From Lama guanicoe (taxonomy: Eukaryota): a stretch of DNA of 64,000 nt. The DNA is taken from the NCBI GenBank assembly GCA_013239625.1, contig MU055549.1, forward strand, positions 1,116,001 to 1,180,000, given 5' to 3'. The notes beneath the pieces are model-generated. The model did no database searches and was not told where the DNA came from. It saw nothing but the letters and a program-made list of their open reading frames with translations. Below are positions 4,231 to 46,698 of this stretch, piece after piece (positions within the stretch are counted from its first letter, which is position 1; every line of letters begins with the position of its first letter). Position numbers and translations under genes: made by a program.

Positions 4231-5124
4231 TAGGTGCGGAGAGTTAACCCTGGGGCAGGTGGCCACATCGTGTGTGCTGGTGGGGGGGGGCGGGGGCTGG
4301 GCCCGCTCTGCTGTAGCGTCCTCTGCCCCTCTCCTGTTGTTGGAAGTAGGAAGCCACTGCCCGTTGCCAGCGGCCTGGCCAGCCCACCCACTGGGAGCAA
4401 GCAGAGAGGATCCCAGAACCCCCTGCACACCCCAGGTCCTGAACACGCATCTGCAGTAGCCCAGGGCACCTCAGCCTGGCAGGGACCTGGGGCTGTGGTG
4501 TCGTGGTCCGAGTGCCTCCCGCTGGTGTCCCAGGCTGGGCTGGAGGCTGCTCCTTGGCTGGCCTGCGAAGCTCTCCACTCGTAGAGCCGCACCTCGGACA
4601 CACCGGTGCATTGAGGCCGGGTCAGGACGGGTGTGGGAGGGCGGGCCGGGCGCACGTGGCCGGCCCACTCCCAGCTCCCGTCTCCTGGCCCTTGGCTGCA
4701 GACCTTTGGCCCTGGAGCTGTAGCCAAGCCAGTATGGCCCCCCCACCCCTGAGATGGGCCTTAATGCAGCTCTCACTCCACGCAGCTGCGTCCACAGCTG
4801 CCCTGGTGGCTCATAAGGTGGGACCTCGGCTCCCAGAGACCCAGGTGGGGCAGGGGGATGAGCTGCACGCCTGCCAAGCCGGGAAGCCTCGGACGGCATC
4901 CCTGGTCTGGGCGTGTGGGGCGACCCAGCCGCTGTGACGCTGGCCAGGCGTGCAGGTCCTGGGGCTGTGACGTTGATCCTGTCCTGTCTCTGCTCTGAGC
5001 CAGTTCAGGGGAGCAGTTAGCCAGGCTGCGGCTGCCGGCTGCTGGCGGGTCCGGGGGGAACCACACTGGGCCGAGTGCCGGCAGGACTGGGCCTGGGCAC
5101 CAGCTGACGGGAGCTTTGTTCCAG

Positions 5125-5250
5125 CTGCTCACTGTGGACCCCAAGCATCGCGTGTCCAGCCTGCGGGATGTGCAGGCGGCCCCGGCGCTGGCCGGCGTGC
5201 TGTGGGCCGAGCTCAGCGAAAAGAAGGTGGAACCTGGCTTCAGGCCCAAC
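5125..5250 (+). CDS. STK32C: STK32C coding exon (LLTVDPKHR...GFRPN)
   Basis: ttccag|CTG ... AAC|gtaagc, 126 nt. Confidence 0.95.
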
Positions 5251-5343
5251 GTAAGCCTGCAGCCGGGCGGGCGGGTGGGGCAGACGGGGCGGACAGGGCA
5301 GGCGGGCAGGCCCAGGCCGGGCTCAGCGCCCCGCCCTCCACAG

Positions 5344-5475
5344 AAAGGCCGCCTGCACTGCGACCCCACCTTCGAGCTGGAGGAGATGATCCTGGAGTCG
5401 AGGCCCCTGCACAAGAAGAAGAAGCGCCTGGCCAAGAACAGGTCGCGAGACAGCAGCAGAGACAGCTCCCAGTCG
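5344..5475 (+). CDS. STK32C: STK32C coding exon ([14 protein letters not shown]...DSSQS)
   Basis: cacag|AAA ... TCG|gtgagt, 132 nt. Confidence 0.95.
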
Positions 5476-5959
5476 GTGAGTGCGGGCCGGCTGCAAGCGT
5501 CTGCCGGCCCCTGCCTCACGCTCCCTCCTCCATGTCGGGGGGACGTGGCCGGGGCAGCCTGGGGAGGGCCCTCCTGCCTCGCCCAGCTCTGTTGTGGCCA
5601 TCGGGCCAGGCTCTGCCTCCGTGGTCACGGGCCGTCTTCCTGCGTGCGTGTGTGCGCGTGCGTTATGTGTCTGCCTGGTCTTCCCACAAGCACAGCAGTC
5701 ACCCTGGGCAGGACCCCTAGTCAGGATGACCTGCCCTTCATTGGACTGGTGGCAGCTGCAGGGACTTCATCCCACGTTCCAAGGTGCAGGGCTAGGACCC
5801 CCTTGGGGGGTACAGTTTAACCTGTCACAACCCCCAACCTGCCCCGTGTCGCCTGCTTCTCTGGAGTGGGTCGGTGCCCGCGGAGCAGGGGATCCAGCCT
5901 GAGCCTGTTCCCGGGGTACGGCTGGTGCTCACAACGCTGCCAGGGATGCAGGTGTGGAC

Positions 5960-15861: not shown

Positions 15862-16032
15862 CAGGTTGTGGTTCTTGGCAGAGATGATTTTCGTGGCCCT
15901 GGGGTTCCATATAACCAGGTCAGCATCAGAGCCCACAGCCACCCGCCCCTTCCGTGGGTAGAAGTTAAAGATTTTGGCAGCGTTCGTACTGGTCACGGCG
16001 ACGAACTCATTCTCGTCCATCTTACCCGAGGC
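15862..16032 (-). CDS. DPYSL4: DPYSL4 exon 11 ([10 protein letters not shown]...GSDADLVIW...NHNL)
   Basis: cccag|GCC ... CTG|gtgaga, 171 nt. Confidence 0.95.
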
Positions 16033-16704
16033 CTGGGAAGCAAGAAGGCCTGGGTGAGGGGAGGGAGGGCCTGGGTGACCCCACGTGGGGCTGCTCTTGG
16101 GGCTCTGGTGTGGAGGCGGTCCCTGTCCCCCAGGCCTCGGGCAGCATCAGAACCCGCTGCCTGCGAGTCGACGGGTCCATCTCAGTGACGCCTGCGGGTC
16201 TGGTCCTTCCTGGGCACGAGGCTGCTCACTAAGCAGGCAAGTCAACGCGGACGTTTCCACAAAGATGTCCATGTTCCTGAGGGACATGACAGTCCCCCTG
16301 GGGTGGCCAGGAACCAGGGTCAGGGCCCCAGGAAGGACTCAGGGCCAAGGTTGGGGGATGCAGACAGAGGCCCCCAGGTAGGGCCCTCCAAGTGAGATGG
16401 ACGTCTGAGGAAATGGCAGGCCTTCTGGGGAGACCACGACATCCCAGAGTGTAATTCTACTGGGGCAGGGACCCTGCTCCCCCAGGGCCATGTTAGGACC
16501 CCATCGTTGTGGGGTCTTTTCCAGGGGGACCAGAAACAAATGTCTGAGGAGCCCTGGATGGAGGGCAGGGTGCGACACCCTGGGGCCCACCCACTCCAAA
16601 CTCTGCTCCACTCAGTGAATTCACTGGTCAAGTGACCTCCCTTTCTGATGAACGGGCAGAATTCCAGTGTGGAGGGGACCCCATGCCCCTACTTCTGCAC
16701 CCAC

Positions 16705-25462: not shown

Positions 25463-26079
25463 TACAAGGGGGCCCGACCCAGCGGCCTGGGCCTCTCCCC
25501 GCTGGATCCCACAGAGCCTCACAGCCCAGTGCCCTGGGGCTGGCTGGGCCCTAGGCCCAGCCCTGACTGGCACTCACAGTGAGCCATCTTGCCCATCTTC
25601 TGAGCCAGACCCTGCCTGCCTCCTCCCCTCCACCCCACAGTGTCCCCACTTTGACACCCACCCCCACCAGTGGACCAACTCATGCTCAAAGTCCAAAAAG
25701 AGGAATAAGAAGGCTTTGGGCAGGAAGAGACTGTGGTCCCCTGTTCAAGCCCCACGCCCCACCCCCAGTTTTCAGACACCTGGATTCAGAATCTGGGAGC
25801 CTCGTGGAGGGGAGTGTTGGAACCAAGAAGGAAATACAGCAGAGATGGGGTGGAAGTTCCTCTAAACCAGCCGACTTGTGTCTGACCCACCTGAGATGGG
25901 ATCATCCCCCCCCCTGCACCTGGAGGGCTTCCTGCATGAGGGTGGACCCTGGGCCAGCCTTGAGGCATGACCCCCTGCGGTACGCAGAGGAGGGGGCTCC
26001 TTTCTTCCTAAGTGTGTAGGGAAGTGGGCCAGAAATCCCACGGACCCCATCGCCCTCCCGCTGAGGCAAAGTGCAGAGT

Positions 26080-27300
26080 TAGGTTTGAATCCGCGGGCTC
26101 CCAGGCACGGTCCAGTTGGCGCCAGGCTCTCGCTTCCCTCCCTCGGCTGGGCTCCGGGCTGCCTGGAGGGGCCAGCTTTGTTTCCTGGCCGCGCAGGGCG
26201 GGCGGTCGACCTCCCCGAGCCGTGCGTGTGGGTGTTGGAGGGGGTCCGCCCGAGAGCAGGGCTGCCGAGGCGCCTGCTCAGCGGCTAGTGAGCGCTCATC
26301 TCTCCGGGGAACTCCGAACCCCGGCTCCACGGAGGGATTCGCGCCGCCAGGGGCTCCGGGCCGAGCGGCCGGGCTGAGCTGCTTTGTCTCGGACAAAGAA
26401 CTCCCGGCGCGGCGGCGGCGCGGTCTGGGGGGCGGATGGCCGGTGGGCTGCGCGGGGAAAGGCATCTCTGCGCCTCGAGGCCAGAGGAGGCTGGGCTGGC
26501 GGTGCCAACAAAGGGCCGCAGCGCCCGCCAATCCTTAAGAAGAGCTCCCAGAGAGGCCGGCCACCGCGGGCAGGGAGGCACGTCTGTGCTTTAGCAAGCA
26601 GGTCTTCCCCGCACCCGCCCTCAACCCCCGGGCTCCGCGCCCTCCCCTGGCGCAGAGGAGGTCCGGCCAAGCCGGCAGGGCCTGAGCCTGGGCCTGTGCG
26701 CGGGATCCGTAAGGCGGTGCAGCGCGGCGCTCGCGGGAGCGCGGGAAGGAGCCGGGGGAAAGGGACAGCCCTGGGACAGGGCCAAGCATGGGGGCTGGAC
26801 CTCGCGAGCAGGGGGCAGGCGCGAGGCCGGGAGGGACCTCCCCGCAGCCTGGAGGCCAGGTCCGGCCTGAGGCAGTGGGCAGGGGGCGCGGAGTGGCTGC
26901 CGGGAGCGGAGCTCACCGTGATCCGGGGGATGCTCTTCTTGCCCTGAAAAGACATCTTGCTCCTCCGGCCGGCGCCGCCGCCTCGGTCGGCCCGCGCGGC
27001 CTGGCTCAGGCGGGGCGGGCCTGGGGGTCCTCGGTAGGGGGTGCAGGAGCTGGGCCGCGCAGGGGACGCGCAGAGCCCAGGCGTGTACGTGAGGGCGCCG
27101 GGCGTCTGAGTGGGAGCGCGCTGGGCCGCGCGGCTCCGTTACCGGCCCCGCCCCCGGCTCAGCCCCGCCCCCGACCCGCAGCTGCTCCTGTTTTCAAGCC
27201 CCGCCCCGTCCGGGCTCTGCAATGGTACCCTTACCCCAGCCCTACGTCTGAGCTGCGGCCAAGGGCCTGGCCCCACTAGGACCGCGACGCAAACGCGTGC
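26080..27300. promoter_or_regulatory. CpG island / GC-box promoter of DPYSL4 short exon 1
   Basis: Dense CpG and GC boxes (gggcgg/ccgccc) around the ATG at 26955; boundaries approximate. Confidence 0.8.
26917..26955 (-). CDS. DPYSL4: DPYSL4 exon 1, short/B form (MSFQGKKSIPRIT)
   Basis: ATG at 26955; ACG|gtgagc donor. Confidence 0.96.
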
Positions 27301-27879
27301 TGGACGGGAAGGGGGAGAGGGTTGCAGAAGGTCATGACCAGTATATGTGCGGAGTTTGCAACCAGGAAGGAGGGTGGGAGAGGTCCAGCAACGTCGTGCC
27401 AGGCCCCTCTTCGCCCCTGGCCAGCCACGGATCCACCACCAGCCCCTTGGTGACCCGAGGCACCAAAGGCCACGGGGATTGAATCCAATCTCAAGTCCAG
27501 GCTTATGCGCTCCGGAAGCTGGACTCTGTCTGGAAAGATGTGTCAGGTCAAAGCCTAGCTCCTTCGAGGCTGGCCCAGGGCAGGGATTGGAACGCCAGGC
27601 TGGCCGGGGACCGGCAGTGGAGACGCCTCATTGTGAGGCTGCTCCAGGGCCAGCTCCGGGAAACTTGAGGGACAGAGGGAGGTTGGAGAGACACAGAAGG
27701 GACAGAAAGAGACCCAGAGAGACACAGAGAAAGAGACAGCTCCTCAAGGCCTGGGACGGACCAGAGAAGCAGAACCAGGGCAGGAGAGTCAGGACCTTAG
27801 GGCGGGGCCTGAGGAAGGCGGTGCATGATAGAGTTCAGGCCCAGACTCGGCCAGTCAGGGAGAGGAAGGCCCCGCCACG

Positions 27880-28620
27880 GGCCCTTGCGTCCCCTTGGAG
27901 GAGCTAGGTGGTTGTGCAAGAGTACGAGCCCCTGGTCCGTGCCCCCAGTGGCCTCCCGTCGTGGGTATTCAGCGTGTCGAGGAGTCCGGGCCCGCATCCC
28001 CCTCTCACTGGCCCCTATGCCGGCCCCTCTCTGCACTGCGACCACTACCTGCGGTTGGCCGCGGGCCTGGGCCGCGCTGGACCTCTCTGGGAGACTTGCC
28101 GCAGCCTCTGGGCCGTGTCTGTCTGGCTCGCCGGGTCCCTCCGGGTCGCCGCGCGGCCAGCTGTAGGGCTCTCCTGCTCGCGGACCCCGGCGGCCGCTTC
28201 CCAGCGCGTCCAGCTGCAGTGTCTTGTTCTCAAAAGCGTCCTCCACGCAGCGGAAGACTCCGCCGAGCTTGGGCCGGGCCCGGGGGCTGCCTGCGCCCCG
28301 CGTCCGCAGGCACGCGGGCAGAACCTCCGTGGGCTGCCGTGCTGCCATGGCGGGAGCAAGCGAGGCGCGGCCGGTCCTGCAGCCTCCTGTGGCGCGGTCT
28401 GCGGGGTGCGCGTGGCCGGGCGGACCTGGGCCTCGCACTCCCTCCCCTACCCGGCTGCATCCCCCGCCCGCACCCCCCACCCCCGGGCCCGCCGGACGTC
28501 TGCGCGGAGCCGGCGCTGTCCACGCAGCGAGTGCTGAACGCGCGGGGTCTGGGCGGAGGCAGCGCTCCCCGTCCCAGCGCCGAGGCTTGCCCTCTGGGCG
28601 GATGGGGGTTCCGACCTCCT
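27880..28620. promoter_or_regulatory. Second CpG island over the DPYSL4 long first exon
   Basis: CpG-dense block separated from the first island by a CpG-poorer gap. Confidence 0.7.
28049..28348 (-). CDS. DPYSL4: DPYSL4 alternative upstream first exon, long/A-type CRMP N-terminus (100 aa)
   Basis: gccATGG Kozak context at 28348. MAARQPTEVLPACLRTRGAGSPRARPKLGGVFRCVEDAFENKTLQLDALGSGRRG... resembles the long first exons of CRMP1/2/4. The phase-0 donor CAG|gtagtg is compatible with exon 2. Confidence 0.75.
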
Positions 28621-31926: not shown

Positions 31927-33642
31927 CTGAAAAAGAGTGAAGACAGACGCTTCCTGTTAGTGTGAGCAGTCCGAGGCTTGTGAGGACTGCCAGTGGGGAA
32001 GGTCTGGAGAAGCACCCAGGGGCAGAGTGTTGACCGGGTGCCGACCCTGCAAGGGGACAGCCGGGTTACAGTGGCTCAAGCCGTGCTCCCTGAGCACATC
32101 TGTCCACTTGCTGGGTCATTCACGTGGCAAATATTTATTTGAATGTGTGTCGGGGGCCAGACGCTACCTGAGTGTGTATGGAAGCCCTCACTGGGGATTC
32201 CACGGTGAGCAAGCCGGACACATAATCACGCTCAGCTCATCCGGAGCCCGCAGTCTGAGAGGGGAGAGGGCGGTGAGCTGATGGAGACAAGGATGGACAT
32301 CGTGTGGGAGGAGGGACGCAGGACAGGGAGGGAGCTCACGGCTGGTGGTGGTGCAGCTGGAGGCCCCGACCCGCTCCAAGCCCAGCGGGGCGCGGTCTGG
32401 TGAATGACCGCCCTGTGATGGGGTGATGTTTTGATGGGGGTGGACACCAAGAACCACAGACGGGGCTTCACTGAGGCTGGTGAGAAAGTGTAAAGGGAGG
32501 AAGAAGTTGATAATGAAAGTCATGAAGTGGGTTCGTTCCGCAGTCCCAGACGGACAGAGGAGGGATGAGAGGCCAAGAGGGCATCTGGCTGGACCACGGC
32601 CCAGCTGGCAGCAGGGGTGCTTTTAGGCTGGCGCCCAGCCCAACAGGCACGAAGACGTCAGACGCTCGTGAAAGGCTGCAGAGGCAGAACTCGCCTGGGT
32701 GACGCCCGACGGTAACACATGCAAATGCGCCCGTGCATATGGATCAGGAAACGGCGTTCTGAGTGGCATCAACACAGAGCCCGAGGAACAGCCCCCGTCG
32801 GCTGTGTTTGGGCTGGGAATTCCCACGGGGACCCCACTGTTGGGAAACAGAAGGCAGCCGGCAAGGGAGACTGGCTCCTTCCTGGGGTCGGAAGCTGCAG
32901 ACAGTGGGCGCCATGGGGAGCCCAAGGGCCTCACGGGGTGTCCAGAAATGCACACGAAACAAGGAAAGCCGGGTCCTCACACAGGGTGGGCTGGACGGAG
33001 GTCCAGATGGGCGAGGGCACAATCCCACAGGCACTGGGCCGGGGTGAAGCCTTGCGCCCAGATCTTTGCTCTCTGCCCCAAACACCACCCCTACGTCCTG
33101 GCCCCAGACTCTCAACGTAATGCCCACAAACACACACGTGATCAGCTTACAGGGCAACAGAGAACGGGCTAGAACAGAACCTTTCCACATACAGGCTATT
33201 ACTCTGGGACAGTGCAGCCAAACATTTTCAAACCCAACAGAAACAAACGGCAACGATAAACCAGCCTGGGGCCAAGGTCATTTGCCCCTAAACCTCCCAT
33301 TCGGGGGCATATATCAGGAAACAGATGGTCTTGCTCAGGCCCAGCCCAGCGTCCCCCGCCTCTCAGCTCTCCCAGGGTATTTCCATCACCCCGACAGATG
33401 GTGGCGGGGCTGCCGCCAGGCCCCCGACTCTGGGCCGCCTCCTAGGCACTTCTCCCAGCCCCTCGCACAGATGCGGGGACGGCCCACTCAGTCCAGGCTG
33501 TCCACGCACGCACGGGGTCTACCCAGGGCCTCCTCCTCCTGACTTTGACTCTGCGGCCGCCGGTGAGCACGTAATAAAGGCAGCAGCCATGTCTGTGGAG
33601 CTGGTCGCGCGTGAGGACGTTCCCTCAGGGCCCCTGAATGCT

Positions 33643-34060
33643 GCGACGGTTAATTTGTGGGTCAACTCGACCAGGACACGTTTGCCCAGACTTGTCCTGA
33701 GTGTGCCTGTGAGGGTACTTCCAGGTAGGACTAGCATTTGAGTCGACAGTTGAGTAAAGCACATGGCCCTCCCCAGTGCAGGTGGGCCTCGTCCCATTAG
33801 CTGAAGGCCAGAACAGAACAAAAAGGCTGAGTAAGAGGGGAAACCTGCTCTCAGACTTGGACAGAAACATGGGCCCTGCTGGGTCTGGGTCTCCAGCCTG
33901 CAGACCACAGATTGTGATATTGCTGTTTCCACAAACGTGTAAGCCAGTTTGTTATCATCACTCCCTATCTTTACATGGACAGACATGGAAAGACAGAGGG
34001 ACAGACAGACACACACACACCAGCCCGTTGGTTCTGTTTCTCTGCAGAACCCTGCCGCAA
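33643..34060 (+). mobile_element. MLT2-like (ERVL) solo LTR
   Basis: gttaatttgtgggtcaactcgac...gagtaaagcacatggccctcccc...gttggttctgtttctctgcagaaccctg. Confidence 0.7.
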
Positions 34061-34362
34061 ATGTATTACCTGATTAACCTCTCCCACACGAAGGAGGCAA
34101 CCCCCTGTAGAGGAGGGGGCCGAGGTGGGCATAGGTCAATTCACCTGTTGGTGCCACACGGCTAAGAGAAGGCAGCCGGAGGACCAACCTAGACTTGTCT
34201 GACTCCACAGCTGTCTTTTCCACCTTGTGGCTGCCAAGTCCCCTGAGCTACCTCTAACACAAGTAACCAACCTGACAGAGGCTGTGGACACTGCTGGGAG
34301 GGGGCTCGGAGGGCCTGAAAATCCCAGAGTGGATCAGGGGTCACTTTAAGAAAATTCAGACA

Positions 34363-34840
34363 TTGGATAAAGATGTGGCATACGTATACAACGGAATACT
34401 ACTCAGCCGTGAAAAAGAATAAAATAATGCCATTTGTAACAACATGGATGGACCTGGAGATCATCACACAAAATGAAGTAAGTCAGCCAGAGAATGATAA
34501 TATCATATGGTATCACTCATGTGAAATAAAAAAAATGATACAAATGAACTTATTTACAAAACAGAAGCAGACTCACAGACATAGAAAACAAACTTATGGT
34601 TACCAAAGGGTAAGTTAGGGGAGGGATAAATTAGGAGTCTGGGATTAGCAGATACAAACTACTATATATAAAATACATAAACAACAAGGACCTACTGTAC
34701 AGCACAGGGAACTATATTCAATATTTTGTAATAACCTATAATAAAAAAGAATCTGAAAAAGTATAGATATATATAAGCTGACACATACATGACACACACG
34801 TACAGCTGAAGCACTACGCTGTACCCCTGAAACTAACATA
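34363..34840 (+). mobile_element. 5'-truncated, relatively young artiodactyl-type L1 3' end (ORF2 C-terminus plus 3'UTR)
   Basis: MWHTYTTEYYSAVKKNKIMPFVTTWMDLEII is the L1 ORF2 C-terminus; it is followed by aatgatacaaatgaacttatttacaaaacagaa...agcacagggaactatattcaata. Confidence 0.9.
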
Positions 34841-35452
34841 GCAGGCACAGACAGGGCACATAGCCAGGGCCACCAAAGGCCGAGACCTTGCTGACCCGGC
34901 CACGGGCTCGCCTCCGGGCTCTCAGCGGGACACGAGGGGACTGGCGCCCCTGAGGCTCCGAAGGGCACAGGGCGCCAGCACAGGGTGACGAAGGCGCCGC
35001 TGCTGGGTGGGGCCATGTCTTCACCCCCACGGCCCCCACGCGTTTCTGTCCTGGGTACCAGGAGGACCAGGCCAGGGAGGGGCCGTGCCTGGAGGTCAGG
35101 GCCCAGGGCGGCGGCAGTTCCAGAGGAGAGGGCAGGGCGGGAAACTTCTGTCCTGTGTTACCAGTGTGAGGACTGGCTGCAGCCGGCACGGAGTGGGCTT
35201 CCTGCCTCCAGCTGTCTGAGCACCCAGGGCCTCACCACATCCTCCTCAGCCCAGAAGTCAGCACGGTCAGGGCCATGCCATCAGAGTCACGGCCAGAAGG
35301 GCATGGAGAGGCCAGCTAAGCCCTGTCCCTCCCAGAAAGGAGGGCGGCTTGTCCTCGTTCACATGCTGTAAGTCCCCTGGCTGGTGTGGGCGCAGAGCCC
35401 ACTGCCCAGGCTCCAGGACTTCCCCTGGTCACACGTGCCCAACCCCACAGTC

Positions 35453-35606
35453 CAGACCCGCACACACGCACCCAGATGCACAGCCGCACACGCACGGCCC
35501 AGACCCGCACACACGCACCCAGATGCACAGCCGCACACGCACGGCCCAGACCCGCACACACGCACCCAGATGCACAGCCGCACACGCACGGCCCAGACCC
35601 GCACAC
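35453..35606. repeat. Minisatellite, 47-bp unit, ~3.3 perfect copies
   Basis: cagacccgcacacacgcacccagatgcacagccgcacacgcacggcc starting at 35453, 35500, 35547 and 35594. Confidence 0.92.
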
Positions 35607-37775
35607 CCATGGCCCAGTGCACGGACGTGCGCACGGGCACACACCTGGGCTCACACTTCCTGCCTGCCTTCCATTGGTTGCTTATTTCCTCACTTGGCTG
35701 CCAGGAGCTGCTCACACAGCCCTGGAAGCGGGTGTCCAGCATCTCTGCTGACACTGACTTCTCCAACAGTGGCATCTGGTGTCAGTGGCCTCGTGACCAT
35801 GCCAGTAAAAGGACCCTTTACTGCCTTCATCAAGATGGTGACATTACAGGCAATAGACAGCTGGCCGCAGCTCAGGAGCTCCTGGCTGGACAGGACAGAC
35901 TAGACAGCGGGGCCTGGGACGGACGGTGAGCCCACTTCTGTCTGAGACTGCGTGCAAGCCTCCTAGAGTCATACTAGACAAAAGGTCTTGCCATAAGGTA
36001 AACACAGAGCCCCGAACATAGAGCAAAAGTCGCCCCAAAGCTGCCGAGAACTGGAAGAGCTGATCCCCATCGCCGGAGGCTGAGCGTCGGCCCTCAGCCG
36101 ACCCCACGCGGAAACCCGGGAGAAACCCCCGCCCCGGCGCACTGACAGACGTCACGAGAACGTTCGTTCGCGAAGCGCCCGTCACAAAAGCAAACGCCCC
36201 ACGTCCACCAGAGGCGCGGAGCAGCAGGCACGGGCGCGGAGGCGCGGACGCGCAGGTCGCAGGACGGCGCTCGGCACGGCGCCGCCACGTGCGGGGGGTG
36301 CGTGCAGAAGGCGCACGGCGCGTCGTCGCTTATGGGGACTTAAAAGCAGGGACAATTAGCCCTTTTAGACACACGAGTCCGCTACACACTCTGCACGGGC
36401 CGCCGCCCCGGGGCCAGAGGCAGCGGGCTCCTGGGGGAGGGGCGGCGGTGGGAGGGGCTGAGCGGCTAGCAGCCAGCGTGTCCAGAGATGTTGCAAAAAG
36501 CAGATTTACCAAGTGGGCCGCTCCGAGCCCAGTGGCAAGAGGGTGGCCTGAGCCAGTGTCAAGATGAACGCAATTCTGTGCCCCCAGGGAACAAAGATGA
36601 AGAAGAATGAGGAGCCATGAGGGGGCAACAGGGGCCGCGGGGCTCCACGCCCGTGTGGCCATCCTGGCTCCCTGGCTTGGGCTTGTCACTTGCCATCAGC
36701 CAAGCACCCATCTGACCCCATCATGAGCCCCTCCTCCTCCCACTTGGGGCTGGAGCCCAGGCTGCCGCCGCGGCCCTGACAGGGCCCCTTGTGCGTCAGG
36801 GGGAGGCGGGTGCCACCACCTGTCCCTGCTCCTAGGATGGACAGGAGAGCTGTCCCCGAGCCGGGAAGAAGGGCCTCGAGCAGCTGGTTTTCACGCTCGG
36901 GTGAACCTTCTACAAGGAACATAATAACGGCTCACCTTTTGTTCTTTTTCTTAAACATAAAACACACAGAAATTACAAAGCAAATCTCCTCGGGTTATGA
37001 TGGAGAAGGTGACAACCATTTTTACAGGAAGGTCCCTCCTCCACATATGCACAATGCCCCTTAACTCAGACGGACGCTGGGCGGGAGCAGCGCATGCCTG
37101 AATCTCACGGCTGACCGCACCGCCGTCACTTCTGGCCGCCGGGTCTCGGCGCGGCGGAAGCCATCACAGCCCAGGCTCCTGGGGACCGGGGGTGCTCATC
37201 TGCACTCAGCACCTGCTCCACCAGGAGCTGTAAATCTGGATCTGCTGACAGTTAATCTCCCACCTCTTCAGCTTCCAGACCCCGAGCGGGGCAGGCGGGG
37301 TCCCTGGAGACCAGCCCCAGCCCCAGGATCCGGTGGGGACCAGGCAGCCGGGAGCCAGCTCAGAGGACACCAGCGAACAGCAGCACCTCCGCCGCCTCCC
37401 AGGGTGAGGTGACTCGGAGACAGTGAGGGCACCCCAGCCAGGCTGAGGAGGGGGCACTTGGTCCAGCCAAACAGAAGGCATTTAAATAAAAAAGACAGAG
37501 TTCTTTGCTGTGGGGGGGGCGGGGGGGGCAACTACGTGTCAAAAAAAAAAAATGTGCTTTGACCAAAATGTGAAACGTGCAGCGACTGCAAAATGAACTC
37601 CTGATGGGTCGTGGATAAAAACGTGAGACGTGAAGTCACAAAATCCCAGGAGACACGGGAGAAAATATTTCTGACTTTGGGTCAGGCAGTTTTCTCAAGT
37701 CTCTAACGAACGAGACTTTATCAAAATTTAAGAAATTCTCTTCAAAGGATACTCTTAAGAGAACAGAAAGACAGA

Positions 37776-37895
37776 GGGGAGGCTACAGCTCAGGGGTAGA
37801 GCACGAGCTTAGCACACATGAGGTCCTGGGTTCAATCCTCAGCACCTTCTCTAAAAATAAACAAATAAACCTAATTATCTACCCCCACAACAAAA
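37776..37895 (+). mobile_element. tRNA-derived SINE (camelid vic-1-like)
   Basis: ggggaggctacagctcaggggtagagcacgagcttagcacacatgaggtcctgggttcaatcctcagcacc has A and B boxes, then an aaataaacctaatta tail. Confidence 0.85.
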
Positions 37896-39198
37896 GCAGC
37901 CTTTAAACAAAAAAGATCTTACTGAAAAATAAGAGAGAGAGAGAGAGAAGGAATAAAACGACAAAATAAAGAAAGACGTAGAGACAATACTTTGGGATCA
38001 TATATCTGACCAAGGCACGTACCTGGAATGTGTAAAGAAGTCTTAGTACTCAATAAGAAGAAAGCAAAAATCTAATTTAAAATCAGGCAAACAACTTGAA
38101 CAGACACTTCACCAAAGAAGATATGTGGGCTGAAAATCAACACATTAAAAGACGCCCAACATCATGAGGCATGAGCGGAATACAGATTACAACCAGAACA
38201 GTATGCCTCTGCGCCCCTATTAGACTGGACGCCCGCCCCAGCCAGAAAAGACCGGTGATGTCGAGTGTGGGTGCAGACGCGGACAACAAGAACGCTCATA
38301 CTTTGCTGGTGGGAATGCAAAACACACAGCCACCGAGGACAACAGTTTTGTGTCAAACACACTTACCAAGCCTAGGTATTCATCTGAAAAATGGAACCCT
38401 GTATTGACACAAACACCTGTGCATGAATGTTTACAGCAGTTTGACTCACAGTTGCCCCAAGTGAGAAACCAGCAGACACACGTGGATAAGCGTCGTACAT
38501 CCACACAACAGAAACAATTGGGCACAAAGGGACAAGCTACAAAACCCCGGGGGCCCTCCATGCGTTTTGCTACAACGTGAACAAAGCCAGACCTCAAAGC
38601 TACGTACGGAACGCACGTACCGTATTTTCCACTTACAAGACTTGGAAATGGCAAAACTTAAAGGAGGGAACAAACCAGGGTTGGGGAGGGTGGGGCTGGG
38701 GACAGGGGACTGTGGAGCAAGGCAGAGGGGTTGGGGGCAATGGCACTGCCCTGGACCACGACTGTGGTGGACACGTGTGTCAAAACCCACAGACTGCACA
38801 CCACAAACAGGAACTTTACTGTGAAAATTTTAAAAAATGCACCCTGTAGGGGAGGCCCGAAAGGAAACCCAGCTGTAATGAACAAACCTGAGTGACTGCA
38901 GGTGGACAACGTGACCCAGGTCACCCGAGAACTACACTCGGAGACCATCAGGCTGAGGACAAGGGACTGCGCTCCACGGTCCCCTAGCTGGGCAGCTGGC
39001 TGCCCAGGGTGTAGGGGCTAGCTCTTCTGAAACTCCTGTGTGTGGACACCAGGACTGAGCAAACAATAACACCATTTACATGGCGAGAGCCACGTCCCCG
39101 TGAACGGAGTCACAGACGAGGAAATGGGGAGGCTGGAATGAGTCTCGAATTGTTAGCCTGGAACTGGAGGCATCCTTACGAACTCATGCTTTCATAAT

Positions 39199-39365
39199 AG
39201 ACACACAGATAACAGACAGATGGACAGATGGATGGATGGGTGGATGGATGATGGATGACAGATGACGGATAAGCACAAAGGTAGACAACAGATAGGTGAT
39301 ATGTAGACAAGTGACAGACAGACAGGTGAGAGGTGGCAGAGGACACGATTAGACACAGAAAGACA
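39199..39365. repeat. (GGAT/GACA)n simple repeat
   Basis: gacagatggatggatgggtggatggatgatggatgacagatg. Confidence 0.85.
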
Positions 39366-42300
39366 CCAGGAAGAGTGGTGTGCGTGCATTAGCGCCCAGG
39401 GGAACACTTCCAGGCTCTGCCCCTGGGGCTAGAAACCATCCACCCCACAGCAGTGAGCACACCCCACGCCCAGAGACGCTGGTTCCTGGACACCACTCTC
39501 CAGCAGAGGGAACCAGAGAGCCCTGGAGAAGCGGCTGCTCGCAGGCTCGGGGCGGGGAAAGCAGGACGCCAGAGCACCCCGCAGGAACGGACGGCAAGGA
39601 AGGGCCAGAGGAACAGACGGGGCTCAGAGGACGCGAGCCGACCCCACGGAAAGCTCGATGGCTTAAGCTGGAAAAATCCGGGCAGGAAAATACAGCTGGT
39701 GTTGGATTATAACCCACAGATTAAATTGGATATCCATGAGTCCACGCTGATACAAATAGCTGGAGAGAGAGAGAAAGAAACGAGAGAAGGGGGCAGGCCT
39801 TCTCCAGAGAAAGCCCCTAACAGCACAGGAGGGACGTGAGGCGGGAAGTCACCGCGCGAGCAGGCGTGACCACCGTCGCAGGGAAGACCCACCGACACCT
39901 GGCGACGCCGTCGGGCAAATGCTTAAGGAGGTTCAGGGGTCCGCGTGGTCTTCAAGTGTCCCTTCCCAGTCCACTGCTTGGCGACAAGCGGCACCTTTCC
40001 CTGGAGAACTCGGCAGAACCCTGATCGAGGTCCACATCAGAGGCAGAAAGCCTGTGCACGCCCGGCTGCGCCCACCGGACACACTCAGACGGCGCGCCGC
40101 CCCGGGCGCCTCCTGAGACCGCGCGACCTCAGTACCACCGCGCCAGCGCAGCGGCCAAACCACACTGAAGGGCGCCCCACAAAACAGCTGGCCAGCACCT
40201 GCCAAGGTGCCAAGCGCCAGGGTGGCGAGGAAAGCTGAGAACACTGTGGCCGACAGAGAGGGACCAGGAGAAGGACTCAACTTCGTGCGGGGCCCCGGAG
40301 CAGAAACGCCCGCCTGAGCGGAGCGGGTGGACGAGCGGAGCTATGAAAGTGCGCTGTGACTGTGCGAGACACGACGTCGGGGGAAGCCGGGCGCAAGGTG
40401 CGCAGGAGCTTCACACTGTCTCTGCGATTTTAAGTCTGAAACTATTTTAGAACCAAAAGCTCTTTAAAAGCTCATGGGGAGAGGGGAGGTGCTTGCTTAG
40501 GAAGCTGGTGACTTCCTGTGCCGCACCAGACGTGGAGGGGACCAGCCTCTCCCACCCTCGCCTCTGGGGCAGAGGAAGCCCCGCAGCCCAGGTGCGGCTG
40601 CCCAGGCTGCGGGGGCCCCTGTGCTCCACGGGGATGCGGCCGGTGGTCCTGGGCTGGGAGGAGGGAGGGTACACAAAAGACCCCAGGTTTAGACGGCAGC
40701 TCTTTCCTGACAGCCTCACACCCACCCTGGAGACTGACAAGCCGGGGCGCAGTGGACATGCCCCTGAAAGGGGCAAGAGCGGCCCGTCTCCCATGAGCCG
40801 CCCTCTGGCTGCAGCCCGACAGCCCCCAGCACTGCGTCCCCACAAAGCGGCCCGCAGTGGCTTTCCGCCTCTCCTCACCTGACTGAGCAAACAAGCGCAA
40901 GGCGTCCTGTCGCCCAGTGAGGCCGCAGCTCCCCGGCGGGAGCGGAGGCCGCAGGGCCACCCTCCCTGAACGTCGGGGCTGTTACTTCTGCCTGGGGTGA
41001 GGGCAGCCGGGCGCCAACTGCTTCGCGCAATGCTGTCCCACTTTGGCCAGTGTTCGAGAGCTCTCTCCCCGATGCCTGGAGGCCGCGCTCGGTGGAGGGA
41101 AAACGTGCTTCTCTGTGGGGCTCTGTGAGAGCGTCTGACTCGGCACCCAGGCTGTGGTGCTTGGTCTGGGAGCCGGCCGCCGCCCCCGCCAGCCCTGAGC
41201 TGGGCCGGGCAGCACAGGTCTGTCCCCGTCGCATGGTGATGCCCGCTGGCCCCAGCCCGGCCTCCCCAGTGTGAGCACCCCAGGAGCAGAAGCTGGTCCG
41301 AGTCATCTCTGGGGCTCCAGACCCACAAAATGGCTCTGTTCAAGGGGGCGTCCATTAGCATCCAGGCCCTGCAGGTGGCCCAGGCGGTGTGGGGGGGGCT
41401 GTGCCTCCCGCCCCGCTCTCCTGCTCCCCGCTCCTTACCTGGCCCTGGCTCCCCTCCACAGGTGTGACTTGCCTGCGGCTCTGGGGCACGGAGCGGCCTG
41501 CCAAGCCCGGGCAGGCTGCTGCTCCCCGCACACGCCAGGCAGGCCACGGAGCCACGAGCTGGCTCATCGGGGGAAGGCTGCAGGGACAGTGCCAACCCCC
41601 GGGGGCCCTTCAGGGACTCTGGGCAGTGCATTTTGATACCAGCATTGCCACGGTGACATACAGCATTCACTGTCCCTCACCGGCCGCAGGTGCCTTTTGA
41701 GGCCAGGCCATGCCTGTGGACTATCCTTGCCCATCAGAGAGGCAGCGGGGTGTGTTCCGCACTTTCCTCAACACAACACAGTGCAGCCCAAGGACCTCCA
41801 TGCAGATTCCAGGAGGTGCCCCTGAGTCCAGGGACCAGGCCTCGAAGAGCATGTTGGGGTTGGAGGGCCCACAGATGGACCAAGGCGGGGACTGGCCCCC
41901 TCCAGATCCAGCCTGTAGAGCTCTTTCTCGCCCAAGGCCGTGCTCACGCACCCCTGCAAACACAGGAGCAGACTCTGCTGTGTCTGAGCCCCGCGCTGGG
42001 TTAACCACATGCCATTCCTCAAGAAGAGCCCCCTCAAGGAACAGGCACCCAGACCCGCCACGTGGAAGGGGAGTGTGCGCGAGGCCCCTGTGAGCAGTGG
42101 TGTGGTCCCCCTCCCAGGCTCTAGCGTCCGCTCCGCTCCCTTCTCTCCATGGCAGCGCATCTCCCTGGGAGCCCCCTGCAGCCCCCCTGAGACAGTCCTT
42201 GTGGACGTGGCCAACTTCACACCCTACAGACTGGGAAAACACCACCGCTCACCCCTCAGAGCCCAACCGCGTCCCACGTGAGCGCCCTCGCCGAGCAAAT

Positions 42301-43843
42301 TCCGCTTAGAAAGAGCAGCTCGGGACAGAGCACCCGATCCCCGGCCTCCGTCCTGGCCGTGGGACCCGCCCCGCCCAGCCGGCCCAGGGAGGCCTCTGGG
42401 CCCTGGGGTAAGGGAGAAGAGGTGATGCACCTGGGGGGGCAGGGAGGCCCGCGGAGCTGGGAGTCAGGGTCCGAGAGACACAGTGGGATGCGTTATTTTG
42501 GAGTTTCTGGGAGCAGCAAGACGGGGGACAGGGGGGCAGGCCAGCAGACCTGGGGATGTGGGGGCTGGGGCCCAAGGAGGCAGAAACGGCCAGACGCCTT
42601 CGACAAGTTCTTCCCTGCCCAGCTGCCCTTGTAGTTCAGGGGCACACCCTGTGACCCCTTCATGGGCACCTCTGGAGGCCTCGGCTGGCCTTGGCGGGGT
42701 GTCCTGGGTTTGGGTGGAGAAGACCTACCGCAGGGGCAGCCCGAGGGATGGTGAGGAGCCCACGCACGGACCTCCCCCAGGGAGCAGACCTGGGTCCAGA
42801 GGTGGTGGTGGGAGGTGAGCTGCCCCACCCACTCCCTCCCACCTGGATAGACACTCCGGGCTCCCGCTGCGGGACCAGTGTCCCAGCAAATTAAATCCAC
42901 GTCTCAAACGGGGCCGACCTGGACCACAGAGTCAGAGGAGGTGGGATCCCACGGACCAGAGGGGAGGTGTGTCAGTGCCCGCGGGGCCCCGGACAGCACG
43001 GGACGGAAGCTGCCCTGTCCCAGGAACAGTGGCCGTGCCTCACCTGCTCGCCACCTGGGCTTCAGGCCCCTTCTCACACGCGCAGAACCACGAAGCACAG
43101 TCATCTCGCCGGGCACTGCCCCCCGAGCACAAAGGCTGGAGCTCTGGACCGGGCAGCTTCCGCCACGCTGGGCTCACCCGCAGCCCCGGGGCCTCCGTGG
43201 TGCCTGGGGCTGCCCTGCCAGAGGTGGCCTCTGGCCTCTGCGATCTCCAACAAGGTCAGGTCCTTTCCACTGTCTGTCCCTCTCTCGTCCCACCTCCCCC
43301 TACCAGGCTCGGTCAGTCCCTCTGCTCCTCGGCCGGCTCAGGGCAGGTCTCTGGCCTTCGTGTCTTGGGCGGCAAGGGAGGCCGAGGGTGATGGCACTGT
43401 GGCAGCCACGGTTCTGTTCCCACAAGTGGCGGCAGCGTAAACGAGGGAGGCCTGCAGGGGATTCGGTCAGTGAGGGCCCAGGGCCCCAGTGAGCCAGTCG
43501 AAGCCTCTCCAGAGCCCACCTGAAGCGACAGAGGTCACCATGGTAGTGGCAGATTCGTCCTGGCATTTTGTAGGGTGCCTGCGCTGTTTCTGAGAAACTT
43601 CCTCTGAGACACACATTTCGGTTGCTAAGGGAACCGAGGGAGGCGGCAGAGCCGGGCTCCTGCTGGGCTCGCTGCCTGTGCTCAGCCAGGGACGCGTGTG
43701 TTCCTGCAGCTGGGGGTGGAGGCTGTGTCCCGAGGAGGGACCCCAGGGTCCGGCAGCCAGACCAGGCCTCTCCACAGGAGCCCCAGTCAGAGAACGAGCT
43801 CTAATCCTGGCTCATTAAAGTGGACAGTCCCCCTCAGAGGGGC

Positions 43844-44002
43844 TCAAAGACCCCCCTTCTCCCGCTTCCTCGACGGGAGGGGGTCCGCAGAGACCAGATC
43901 CTCTTGGGTCTTCAGGGATGAGACACAGTGTCTCGTTCTGCCTCCCAGGCGCCCGCTGCTCTCCGGTCCAGCTGGAGGAAAGGGGTCCGGCTCCTCTGGG
44001 GG
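43844..44002 (-). CDS. JAKMIP3: JAKMIP3 downstream exon: 3'UTR in the TM isoform, coding (PPEEPDPFPPAGPESS...KTQEDL...GGL*) in TM-less isoforms
   Basis: Acceptor tctctgctcttccag|CCC; 52 codons open in phase 0 up to TGA. Confidence 0.6.
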   Translation of the reverse strand, partial: PPEEPDPFPPAGPESSGRLGGRTRHCVSSLKTQEDLVSADPLPSRKREKGGL

Positions 44003-44710
44003 CTGGAAGAGCAGAGACATGGGACACTCATCAGAGAGGCCCCTGGTCCAGAGGGACAGGCTGGAGGGACAAGGCCGCAGGGAAAGGACTGCTCTGCTCC
44101 CGCGGGGAGGCCCCTGGAGATGGAAGGGTGAGGTCACTCCCCACCTGTCCTCTCATCTCGTCTGGGAAGGGCGCGGTGCTCGAGCTTTCCCCTGCGGCCT
44201 CGCTCTGAGAGCCGCGGGGATGAGGCCACAGCTTAGCACAGCTGTGACATCGTGAACGAGCCCAGCTCACTGGGAAAGCGGGCATCTCTGCTGAACCTCA
44301 GGGCGACCCGAGCTTGCACGGGCTACCACGGAAAGGACAGGGAGACGCGAAACCGGCAGCTCTGCCTCCTGCGAGGTGCCCAGGGCAGAGAAACGAGCTG
44401 GCTCTGTGCGAGCACATCTCTCCCCGCGTAGGTCCCGTGGGAGGGGGTCCTGAGCCCTCCTCCCTTCTCCTGGAAGGCCAGCGCCCCTTCCGCTCTGACG
44501 ATGGCAGACCCCTCTGGGCCCCGACCCCAGGGCAGGCACTGCAGTGGCTTCGTGAGGACCTTTGGCAGCCCTGGCTGTTGCCATCCGGACGTGCCTCCTG
44601 CTTGCGGAACCGCAGGCGGCAGCTCCCCGGGCCGTGCGGGGCCCATGCGGGGCCGTGCTGGTCCCCAGGACGCAGAGAAGATACTCACCACGTCAGGGCA
44701 CCCAGGCGAG

Positions 44711-44761
44711 CTATGACCAGAGAATGAAAGCTAAGGAGAAAAATAAGAACAAAAATAGAAA
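44711..44761 (-). CDS. JAKMIP3: JAKMIP3 stop-containing exon, transmembrane tail FLFLFLFFSLAFILWS* (exon continues to a donor at 44689)
   Basis: Long pyrimidine tract then tttcag|TTT; TAG at 44713-44711; GTG|gtgagt donor 22 nt after the stop. Confidence 0.93.
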   Translation of the reverse strand, partial: FLFLFLFFSLAFILWS

Positions 44762-46632
44762 CTGAAAAGGAAAGGGGAGGGCAGAAACATAGAAGGAAAG
44801 AAAGAGAAAAAGCGTTTGTAGCGCTTCTGGCAAGAAGTAACGTGTGATCGCAGACAGGGCGACGCGGGGTGCCCGCCGGGGTGGGGAGCAAAGCCTGTGC
44901 GCTGGCGCCCAGCGGCCTAAGGGTCGTGCTGCCCGCGGGCGCCATGAGGACGCCTGGGTCTAGAGTGACAGTGCTGCCAGCTCCCAGGGGCCTCGCCCGG
45001 GGGACCTCACATCGCCCAGAGCCCAGCAGTCGGGAGGGAGCCTCTGCTGGTCACCTCGCCTCTCACGGGCTCAGTTTCCTCCTCTGGGTGGGGTGGTGGG
45101 TGGGAGGGGGACCGGCATCTGGACCCGTGGCCAGAGCGGCTGGTGAGGGTGCTAACTGGCTATAATGAGGGTGAGAGTCTCACAGAAAGACGTGGCAAGC
45201 GCCAGGCAAACACCAGGACTCCCTGACAACGTCTTGGTCTCATTCCCATTATAAACGATCGAGGACAACCGACACGCTGAACAGATTGCACACCTGGAGC
45301 CCCCTCTGGGGGTCGGGAGGGGCCCGGCCGATTAAGACACAAGAGAAAATCTGGCTGTGGCACAACTGCCTGGAAAAACAGAGCTCCTCCAGCGAGACGG
45401 ACAGTAAACACCCAATTAAAACAACCCCGGCATTTAATACAAACAAATGCTCCTGCTTCAAGATGCAAAAGGAAACAGACATTCATTCAGGGGGAGACGG
45501 CACCGTGGCGGGGCTGGAGCCCCCGGCCTTCCCAGCTCCTGCCCACGGCCTGGCGTCCACCAGGCAGCCACGGCCTTGTTCACGGGCACCTCCCTGCTTT
45601 GCACGGTTAGGGGCCTGTCACTGGCATCAGCACTGGATTTGCAAGTCACTGCCAAGACTGCTCAGCAGACGGTGGTGAAGTTCCCAGGGAAGGGGCCAGT
45701 GTTGTCACCAGGAGTGGGCTGGGCAGGGCAGGGGAGGACCAGCTGGAGGAGCTGCGGTGGGGACAGCCCCTCGGTCCTGCAAGCACAGAGCCCCTGTAGC
45801 TGTGGCCCTCTGCTGGCTCCTCCCAGGCAGGGCCGGGGATGTGCAGCCCATGGGGGTCCTGTGCAGACCCCAGCCTCCTGCCATCTCCGAGAGGGGTAGG
45901 CCAGGGAGGCTCGGCGAGGAGCCGGCTTTTGTGAGATCTGCCCCACAGGCAAGGGGGACCCCACGACGAGAACAAGCAGTCTGACTGCTAGACGTCACCA
46001 AAACACCCTAAACCACAGGAGGAAAAACCGCTCCAGAGCTAAGCACAGCCGCAGAAAGAGCCAGGCTTCCCACCGTGCATGTTCTGCGCACCTTGATTTG
46101 GGAGTCACAGAGCCAGGGGTCGGGGGAAGAGCCGGACAGTCCTCTCTGGTCCCGAGCTGCATGGCCCCAAACCAGCTGCACCCCAGCACCCCAACTTCCT
46201 AACCCTGGGAGCCGCTGCATTACGGACTAGGAAGTGAGAGACTCACACGGGGTGACACCCCATTCTCAAGAGGAGGATACAGCCTTTCAGTAGCTTGATT
46301 TTTAGACAATGTTCCAGGGAACATGAAGGAATCGCGTGCATCAGCACAGCCAGCGTCACACTGAGGGGCCGGGGTTGCGGGTCCTCACATAGCACGACAG
46401 CTGGGCAAACAGGCTGGAGGACGCATGGCCCTCGGGGCCACACGGCTGGGTCATCAGGAGGGGATGTTCCCAGACCCCCGGCTCCCACTCCTGGTCCCGA
46501 GCAGATACCACCCTGAAACCTCTTTCTGTCCAACAACGGCCCAGCCTCAGACCTAGCGCTGTGACACCGAGAGCTGCCTGTTCCGTCTCTGTAAGCTCCC
46601 TGACAAAGCCCAGAAATCTGCAAGCGTTTTAC

Positions 46633-46698
46633 CTTTTCCTCCAGTTCCTTTATCTGTCTCTTCTGAGCTTCTATTCTTTCTTCTAATTCTTTAATTCT
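46633..46698 (-). CDS. JAKMIP3: JAKMIP3 exon (RIKELEERIEAQKRQIKELEEK)
   Basis: tgcag|AGA ... AAG|gtaaaa, 66 nt. Confidence 0.94.

What the first reader, a model, noticed from the sequence alone, without database searches (positions are those of the whole stretch)
43844..44761. JAKMIP3 transmembrane codons double as a polypyrimidine tract: a splice switch between anchored and soluble isoforms
Seen: the TM exon starts TTTCTATTTTTGTTCTTATTTTTCTCCTTAG|CTTTCA..., so the Phe/Leu codons form a strong pyrimidine tract ending in AG at 44732-44731. Using that AG removes 31 nt, shifts the frame and bypasses the TAG. It reads LSFSGHSSPGCPDV, exactly 42 nt to the donor at 44689. It then continues in phase 0 at the next acceptor (44002) for 52 more codons (PPEEPDPFPPAGPESSGRLGGRTRHCVSSLKTQEDL...GGL*). 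Skipping the whole TM exon lands in the same frame. Inference: one 73-nt exon is dual-coding and decides membrane attachment. I recall TM-less NECC2/JAKMIP3 isoforms and a similar LSFSG...DPFPP tail in human predictions, but have not verified this.
Basis: partly seen in the sequence, partly recalled or inferred. Interest (0 to 1): 0.72.

Follow-up and report, generated by a model that had tools for sequence, protein, structure and literature searches.

The report
JAKMIP3 membrane-anchor splice switch
The short exon that encodes the membrane anchor of the scaffold protein JAKMIP3 holds a second splice-acceptor signal spelled by its own codons, so cells likely make anchored and anchor-less forms; an anchor-less form is already published in rat, and database gene models use the same inner site in mammals, fish and the sister gene JAKMIP1.

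Summary
Observation confirmed to the base; the host is camelid-like. The 73-nt anchor exon allows three outcomes: anchored, inner AG (42 nt, shifted frame) and skip. All three exist as database models, but among 26 dromedary models seen, 12 are anchored, 13 skip and 1 uses the inner AG. No read counts were obtained. The pyrimidine tract is what the peptide dictates (26 of 29 against 25.5 expected); only the AG is a free choice. Both halves of the idea are in print: anchor-less rat Necc2alpha (PMC3765260; its primer points to skipping) and TM codons acting as exonic 3' splice-site-like tracts (PMC12398528). Not found in 10 literature searches: the inner AG stands in the same register in JAKMIP1 of this genome, is absent from JAKMIP2, and is used by models from mammals, teleosts and a ray, while the tails behind it are unrelated. 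It is likely an old, natural and productive case of the FAS-exon-6 mechanism with a built-in paralog control. The scan had no earlier JAKMIP note. New member of a known kind; interest 0.33.

The parts
46633..46698 (-). last common coding exon of JAKMIP3 (22 codons of coiled coil), phase-0 donor
   Evidence: tblastn of a dromedary model, residues 809-831
44762..44792 (-). intronic pyrimidine tract and outer acceptor AG (44763-44762)
   Evidence: 26 of 29 pyrimidines, 14 T; no other AG between it and offset -64
44689..44761 (-). 73-nt anchor exon: 16 hydrophobic codons, stop at 44713-44711, 22 nt of untranslated sequence, donor
   Evidence: mean Kyte-Doolittle 2.48 for the camel anchored end; anchored models
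44733..44761 (-). exonic pyrimidine tract formed by Phe/Leu/Ser codons
   Evidence: 26 of 29 pyrimidines, 21 T; equal to the expectation from the peptide
44731..44732 (-). inner AG, made by an A-ending Leu codon and the following Ala codon
   Evidence: same site present in JAKMIP1 and absent in JAKMIP2 of this genome
44689..44730 (-). 42-nt short exon read in the +1 frame (14 codons, no stop)
   Evidence: used by dromedary model X28 (P0243) and a Bactrian camel UniRef entry (P0003)
43844..44002 (-). next exon: 52 codons and stop in both anchor-less forms; untranslated in the anchored form
   Evidence: 225 database proteins match it at E<=0.01 among 260 candidates

Best explanation
The JAKMIP3 anchor exon holds two acceptor AGs 31 bases apart, each behind a pyrimidine tract, and is likely spliced three ways: whole (a predicted tail-anchored protein), from the inner AG (42 bases, shifted frame, anchor lost) or skipped (anchor lost), with skipping probably the commoner anchor-less route in camelids. 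Shown: the two acceptors, the frames, the peptide-dictated tract, the same inner AG in JAKMIP1 and its absence in JAKMIP2. Known from rat: the form with the hydrophobic end floats with caveolae membranes, while a construct lacking it is peripheral or cytosolic. Inferred by analogy with FAS exon 6: U2AF/U2 snRNP or PTB engage the U-rich exonic tract (21 T of 29, against 14 in the natural tract), competing with the outer acceptor; engagement ends in use of the inner AG or in skipping. Inferred from comparison: what is kept over vertebrate evolution is the removal of the anchor, not the sequence of the replacement tail.
For: Sequence anatomy. Query on the upstream coiled coil only: of 120 listed proteins 82 anchored, 24 inner-AG, 13 skip, 1 without the upstream exon. 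Of 615 proteins held, 462 carry the upstream exon; 219 of these begin their tail with a hexapeptide that is a +1 reading of the anchor's last codons, a class that covers 9e-6 of all hexapeptides (the sample is biased by the tail query and by many isoforms per species). Inner-AG models in teleost JAKMIP3 (carp, Triplophysa, chum salmon; JAKMIP3 clade 100/100) and in non-JAKMIP3 paralogs of mudskipper and electric ray. JAKMIP1: 32 inner-AG, 47 anchored, 1 skip, 40 other among 120 listed; genomic acceptor, donor and last exon verified in this genome. Multi-exon ORFs from assembled sequencing runs show the JAKMIP3 skip joint (P0001, P0495) and the JAKMIP1 inner-AG joint (P0327, P0380, P0475, P0476). 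Frame kept: 42 nt in JAKMIP3, 45 nt in JAKMIP1, against 40 nt for the same stretch of JAKMIP2; 13 instead of 14 codons in mustelids and seals. Rat RT-PCR and fractionation (PMC3765260); minigene precedent (PMC12398528).
Against: No junction reads were counted for this species or any other. Inner-AG evidence for JAKMIP3 is almost all predicted gene models; the one non-NCBI/UniRef record (P0026) has the same tail as grey-seal models and may not be independent. Only 1 of 26 dromedary models seen uses it, and none of the alpaca (2), pig or warthog, or colugo (13, all anchored) models seen does. The rat primer for Necc2alpha reads as upstream exon joined to Pro-Ser-Ala, which is not the inner-AG joint (my by-eye reading; Fig. 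1B not seen). The tract shows no pyrimidine excess over the peptide. No convincing branch point: one yTnAy 14 nt before the inner start in JAKMIP3, none at a usable exonic distance in JAKMIP1. Tails differ in length and sequence between camelid (52 or 66 aa), an unnamed mammal (61 aa, P0495), rat (87 aa by subtraction from the paper's lengths) and fish. No canonical poly(A) signal lies within 11.8 kb after 44002, so a further 3' intron and decay of some forms are not excluded.
Confidence: 0.75

Rival explanations
1. Only skipping matters. The inner AG is a tolerated cryptic acceptor, an accident of Leu-Ala codons behind an unavoidable pyrimidine run, used at noise level and picked up by annotation pipelines.
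For: 1 of 26 dromedary models; tract fully explained by the peptide, AG probability 6-33% by chance; rat primer points to skipping; tails unrelated across clades; only genomes that have the AG can yield such models, so the database sample is biased.
Against: Same-register AG in two of three paralogs of this genome, made by two different Leu codons although A-ending Leu codons are 3 of 48 and 5 of 108 in the other exons; models in mammals, teleosts and a ray; in JAKMIP1 the inner form far outnumbers the skip form (32 versus 1 of 120) and appears in run-derived ORFs; length changes of the short exon seen so far are whole codons.
Confidence: 0.2
2. The second frame and last exon encode a conserved functional tail (a true dual-coding exon), for example a basic targeting motif, so the switch swaps one function for another rather than only removing the anchor.
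For: Stop position and a basic C-terminal cluster are kept across camelids, pig, whale, horse, rhino and carnivores; the JAKMIP1 last exon keeps 9 codons, mostly basic at the start, across mammals; Marlin-1/JAKMIP1 is partly nuclear (PMC2685396, passage).
Against: Tail identity to camelid is 70-86% in other orders against 97% for the upstream coiled coil; hits were selected by tail similarity; the first 6-7 residues of the second frame are fixed largely by the anchor frame; JAKMIP1, JAKMIP3 and fish tails share no sequence. No dN/dS could be computed without DNA of relatives.
Confidence: 0.2
3. The anchor-less transcripts are unproductive: a further intron in the 3' region would send them to nonsense-mediated decay and the switch would regulate abundance rather than location.
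For: First canonical poly(A) signal is at 32139, and donor-like sites lie at 43177 and 43077, so 44002 may not start the last exon.
Against: A downstream intron would expose the anchored form equally. The rat paper found endogenous NECC2 mostly cytosolic at about 110 kDa, and adipocyte NECC2 soluble, which suits a translated anchor-less protein.
Confidence: 0.07

Closest known systems
Rat Necc2 / Necc2alpha (Diaz-Ruiz et al. 2013, PMC3765260)
   Same: Same gene; 844-aa form with the hydrophobic region and 915-aa form with another C-terminus, both amplified by RT-PCR; described as alternative intra-exonic splicing; the hydrophobic end decides integral versus peripheral association.
   Different: Its alpha-specific primer reads as a skip-type joint, not the inner AG (my inference); in the passages read there is no splicing mechanism, no cross-species comparison and no JAKMIP1 parallel; the tail is longer (87 aa by subtraction).
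[quoted passage not shown]
   Same: Short alternative exon encoding a hydrophobic helix; pyrimidine-rich because of its codons; exonic tract more U-rich than the natural one; controls soluble versus membrane isoforms.
   Different: In FAS exon 6 the AG had to be inserted to obtain a short exon; here it is natural and annotated as used, in a shifted open frame. The helix is a C-terminal anchor next to the stop. JAKMIP is not mentioned in that paper's main text (0 hits).
RefSeq/UniRef models of JAKMIP3 and JAKMIP1 (e.g. dromedary JAKMIP3 X28 XP_031317909.1; Aotus JAKMIP1 XP_012322438.1)
   Same: Exactly these inner-AG and skip isoforms are already in automatic annotation.
   Different: Predicted models without study; nothing links them as one shared switch.

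Membership tests
JAKMIP3/NECC2 ortholog | sequence identity and exon order match named JAKMIP3 proteins | tested here: met
   94-100% identity of cleanly aligned exons to a dromedary model; JAKMIP3 clade 100/100
[quoted passage not shown] | short (<100 nt) exon that can be skipped | tested here: met
   73 nt; skip models and run-derived skip ORFs; no read counts
[quoted passage not shown] | encodes a hydrophobic one-pass segment | tested here: met
   mean KD 2.48 over 16 residues; best 15-residue window 2.69 against -0.03 in the inner-AG tail; short for a bilayer-spanning helix
[quoted passage not shown] | exonic pyrimidine tract, more U-rich than the natural one | tested here: met
   21 T versus 14 T in 29 nt
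[quoted passage not shown] | exonic branch point upstream of the tract | tested here: inconclusive
   one yTnAy only 14 nt before the inner start in JAKMIP3; crude motif scan, SVM-BPfinder not available
[quoted passage not shown] | U2 snRNP, U2AF or PTB binding to the exon lowers inclusion | not testable with these tools
   needs minigene or CLIP data
[quoted passage not shown] | the exonic site resembles a 3' splice site but cannot be used (FAS wild type) | tested here: not met
   an AG is present and annotated as used; so it works like this class but matches the engineered AG-insertion case
Dual-coding exon | two open overlapping frames reached by alternative acceptors | tested here: met
   the overlap is about 6 codons, the rest of the second frame is untranslated in the anchored form
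Dual-coding exon | both frames transcribed and translated at meaningful levels, both under protein constraint | tested here: inconclusive
   models only; tail 70-86% identical across orders and unrelated in fish; no reads, peptides or dN/dS
Tail-anchored protein (anchored form) | single hydrophobic segment at the extreme C-terminus, inserted in a membrane | tested here: inconclusive
   position and hydropathy met; other segments of the protein not scanned; insertion supported only by rat fractionation (PMC3765260)

The most novel reading that the evidence does not exclude
The inner AG is an ancient, selected switch that predates the JAKMIP1/JAKMIP3 duplication and the split of cartilaginous and bony fish: a natural, productive form of the cryptic acceptor that had to be engineered in FAS exon 6, held in place by a rare A-ending Leu codon, regulating anchor removal in two paralogs while JAKMIP2 lost it and stays anchored by this route.
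Probability: 0.4. Interest if true: 0.55.

Novelty: new member of a known kind. Interest (0 to 1): 0.33.

Why it matters
If the inner AG is a real regulated acceptor, the JAKMIP family gives a ready-made test of a recent proposal (PMC12398528) that hydrophobic codons double as 3' splice-site-like elements: three paralogs encode a nearly identical anchor, two with the AG and one without, so one synonymous base can be swapped between them. It would also explain why endogenous NECC2 is mostly cytosolic in PC12 cells and adipocytes (PMC3765260, PMC6201366), and it predicts that a synonymous variant at one Leu codon changes protein location. The basic switch itself is published and annotated, so the gain is modest.

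Tried and rejected
Read-level junction counts: searches returned no data, so relative use of the three joints stays open. 'Codons chosen to build a pyrimidine tract': rejected, no excess over the peptide. U-enrichment as proof of selection: not accepted, it depends on the null. Conservation of the first residues of the second frame as proof of dual coding: not accepted, mostly dictated by the anchor frame. JAKMIP2 as sharing the switch: rejected for this genome; one unnamed JAKMIP2-like read-through protein (P0599) also runs open through that site, implying no AG (by eye), but no dedicated JAKMIP2 isoform search was run. Assigning the ray and mudskipper proteins to JAKMIP1: unresolved; the tree places them outside JAKMIP3 but leaves the JAKMIP1/2 group open, and the ray branch is long (17 hand-picked rows, midpoint root, no one-clade test). 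Link to Rbfox1: the preprint concerns Jakmip3 exon 4, another exon. Link to PTBP1 in print: 6 papers held the terms, none on this exon by title or abstract start (not read). No fold or complex was run: the question is about splicing. Human and rodent JAKMIP3 tails: no named human, mouse or rat JAKMIP3 was among the listed hits; 105 of 225 hits and all but 120 of 5372 and of 1173 were not shown.

Full report
1. Observation. The sequence is as described. On the minus strand a 22-codon exon (46698-46633) ends in phase 0. The next exon runs 44761-44689 (73 nt): 16 hydrophobic codons, a stop, 22 further bases and a donor. An AG at 44732-44731 leaves 42 nt that read 14 open codons in the +1 frame, and the exon starting at 44002 continues 52 codons to a stop ending at 43844. 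Skipping the 73-nt exon reaches the same frame. The gene is JAKMIP3, and the host is camelid-like: the 52-codon tail is 96-98% identical to Camelus proteins, and a dromedary model maps exon by exon.

2. Chance. Re-encoding the anchor peptide 50,000 times gives 25.5 (gene codon usage) or 26.0 (uniform) pyrimidines in 29 nt; the observed number is 26 in all three paralogs. The tract is therefore dictated by the peptide. U content (21 of 29) exceeds the gene-usage null (P=0.015) but not the uniform null (P=0.23), and the exon before it is also AT3-rich (GC3 0.35 against 0.70-0.93 for the other 11 mapped exons), so I give it little weight. The free choice is the AG, which needs an A-ending Leu codon: 6% under gene usage, 33% under uniform usage.

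3. Paralogs in the same genome. A search with the upstream exon found three loci. The locus on C55224 is JAKMIP1 (named hits). The locus on C1176 is JAKMIP2 (its upstream exon scores best with a named JAKMIP2). Each of the three has a CRMP/DPYSL-type amidohydrolase match downstream on the same strand. JAKMIP1 has the inner AG at the same position, made by a different Leu codon, with 45 nt to a GT donor and a last exon of 9 codons that matches the camel JAKMIP1 X1 model. JAKMIP2 encodes the same anchor with a T-ending Leu codon, so it has no AG, and the equivalent stretch would be 40 nt to its apparent donor. A-ending Leu codons are 3 of 48 in other JAKMIP3 exons and 5 of 108 in other JAKMIP1 exons.

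4. Database isoforms. With the tail as query, 225 of 260 candidates matched and 120 were listed; they include inner-AG and skip models of camels, carnivores, a whale and pangolins. With the upstream coiled coil as query, the 120 listed of 5372 split into 82 anchored, 24 inner-AG (23 of them equids), 13 skip and 1 without the upstream exon. Of 26 dromedary RefSeq models seen, 12 are anchored, 13 skip and 1 uses the inner AG. The pig and warthog anchor-less models seen are skip forms, and the 13 colugo models seen are all anchored. For JAKMIP1 the 120 listed of 1173 give 47 anchored, 32 inner-AG, 1 skip and 40 other or partial. A search of cluster representatives (163 hits, 150 listed) added inner-AG forms in carp, Triplophysa and chum salmon JAKMIP3 and in mudskipper and electric-ray proteins outside the JAKMIP3 clade. 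A register test shows these are true +1 readings of the anchor's last codons: 576 of 64 million hexapeptides are compatible, and 219 of the 462 held proteins that carry the upstream exon start their tail with one (153 of 615 lacked that exon and were set aside). These counts are models, not independent events, and only genomes with the AG can contribute. Multi-exon ORFs from assembled runs show the JAKMIP3 skip joint (P0001, P0495) and the JAKMIP1 inner joint (P0327, P0380, P0475, P0476); I infer that they come from transcripts. No read counts were obtained.

5. What is conserved. The tail is 70-86% identical to camelid in other mammalian orders against 97% for the coiled coil. Its stop position holds in most Laurasiatheria seen, but not in pangolin (3 residues longer), P0495 (61 aa) or rat (87 aa by subtraction). 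Fish tails and JAKMIP1 tails are unrelated to it. All tails tested lose hydrophobicity (mean KD -0.81 to -1.17 against 2.48). The short exon changes by whole codons where it changes (13 in mustelids and seals; 15 or 16 in unnamed JAKMIP1 records). The simplest reading is selection for removing the anchor in an open frame, with loose constraint on the tail.

6. Mechanism. Shown: two acceptors, frames, paralog pattern. From literature: in PMC12398528 (passages and the first part of one results section read), TM-encoding exons are pyrimidine-rich because of their codons; adding an AG after the tract of FAS exon 6 creates a short exon that competes with the natural acceptor and responds to PTB and SRRM4; and exonic branch-point mutations reduce skipping in CHODL and CXADR. 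Inferred: JAKMIP3 and JAKMIP1 are natural versions of the AG-bearing case. The branch point is unresolved. The last exon and decay status are unresolved: no canonical poly(A) signal between 44002 and 32139.

7. Prior knowledge. PMC3765260 (passages and the first half of Results read; figures and supplements not seen) reports rat Necc2 (844 aa, with the hydrophobic region) and Necc2alpha (915 aa, alternative C-terminus) by RT-PCR. The form with the hydrophobic region floated with caveolin-1 and TrkA; a deletion construct did not, yet it still co-localised with caveolin-1 at the surface. Read by eye, the alpha-specific primer spans the end of the upstream exon and Pro-Ser-Ala, which is a skip-type joint, and the other inner primer shows that rat has the inner AG too. 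PMC6201366 (3 passages) finds NECC2 soluble in adipocytes, with the membrane variant apparently absent. PMC2685396 (5 passages) mentions five Marlin-1 splice variants without this one in the passages seen. The Rbfox1 preprint (1 passage) concerns exon 4. Ten searches (listings only for unread papers) found no paper on the inner acceptor or on its sharing by JAKMIP1 and JAKMIP3. Subscription journals and supplements were not covered and may hold it. The scan's own notes had nothing on JAKMIP.

8. Verdict. A real alternative-splicing switch, known at gene level in rat, annotated in databases and belonging to a published mechanism class. The added value is the paralog pattern and the depth across jawed vertebrates, which make a clean test case. 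New member of a known kind; interest 0.33. Novel case (ancient selected productive acceptor): probability 0.4, interest 0.55.

Noticed in passing
L004:7428-7503 (G000:C55224:35866228-35866303) and G000:C55224:35865147: JAKMIP1 has the same inner AG, a 45-nt open second frame and a 9-codon last exon; this anchor-less form is isoform X1 in camel and common in mammalian annotation.
   Followed up: yes
L006:6068-6138 (G000:C1176): JAKMIP2 encodes the same anchor without the inner AG; exon of 71 nt by its apparent donor: a natural negative control.
   Followed up: partly
window 15889-16035, minus strand; G000:C55224:35688610-35688762; G000:C1176:3166025-3166180: An amidohydrolase-family (CRMP/DPYSL-type) match lies downstream of each JAKMIP gene on the same strand, as expected for duplicated blocks; the names DPYSL4, CRMP1 and DPYSL3 are recalled, not tested.
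   Followed up: partly
window 26001-28500: CpG-rich windows, probably the promoter of the downstream DPYSL-type gene; another CpG-rich window at 36001-36500 is unexplained.
   Followed up: no
window 46633-46698: The last common exon is purine-rich with GC3 0.35, against 0.70-0.93 for the other 11 mapped JAKMIP3 exons; it may carry splicing enhancers.
   Followed up: no
window 32139-44002, minus strand: No canonical poly(A) signal for 11.8 kb after the 44002 acceptor; donor-like sites at 43177, 43077 and 41438: the 3' UTR may be spliced again or very long.
   Followed up: partly
dromedary models P0239-P0251 against P0247: Other isoform differences of 1-2 residues near positions 283, 447, 533 and 668, of 14 residues at 741 and of 72 at 211: probably tandem splice sites and cassette exons elsewhere in the gene.
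   Followed up: no
window 4999-5817, plus strand: An open frame holds a stretch that recalls the end of an STK32-type kinase domain (resemblance from memory, untested).
   Followed up: no
window 43844-43870 and JAKMIP1 last exon: Both anchor-less tails have a short basic cluster near their ends despite unrelated sequence; possible targeting motif.
   Followed up: no
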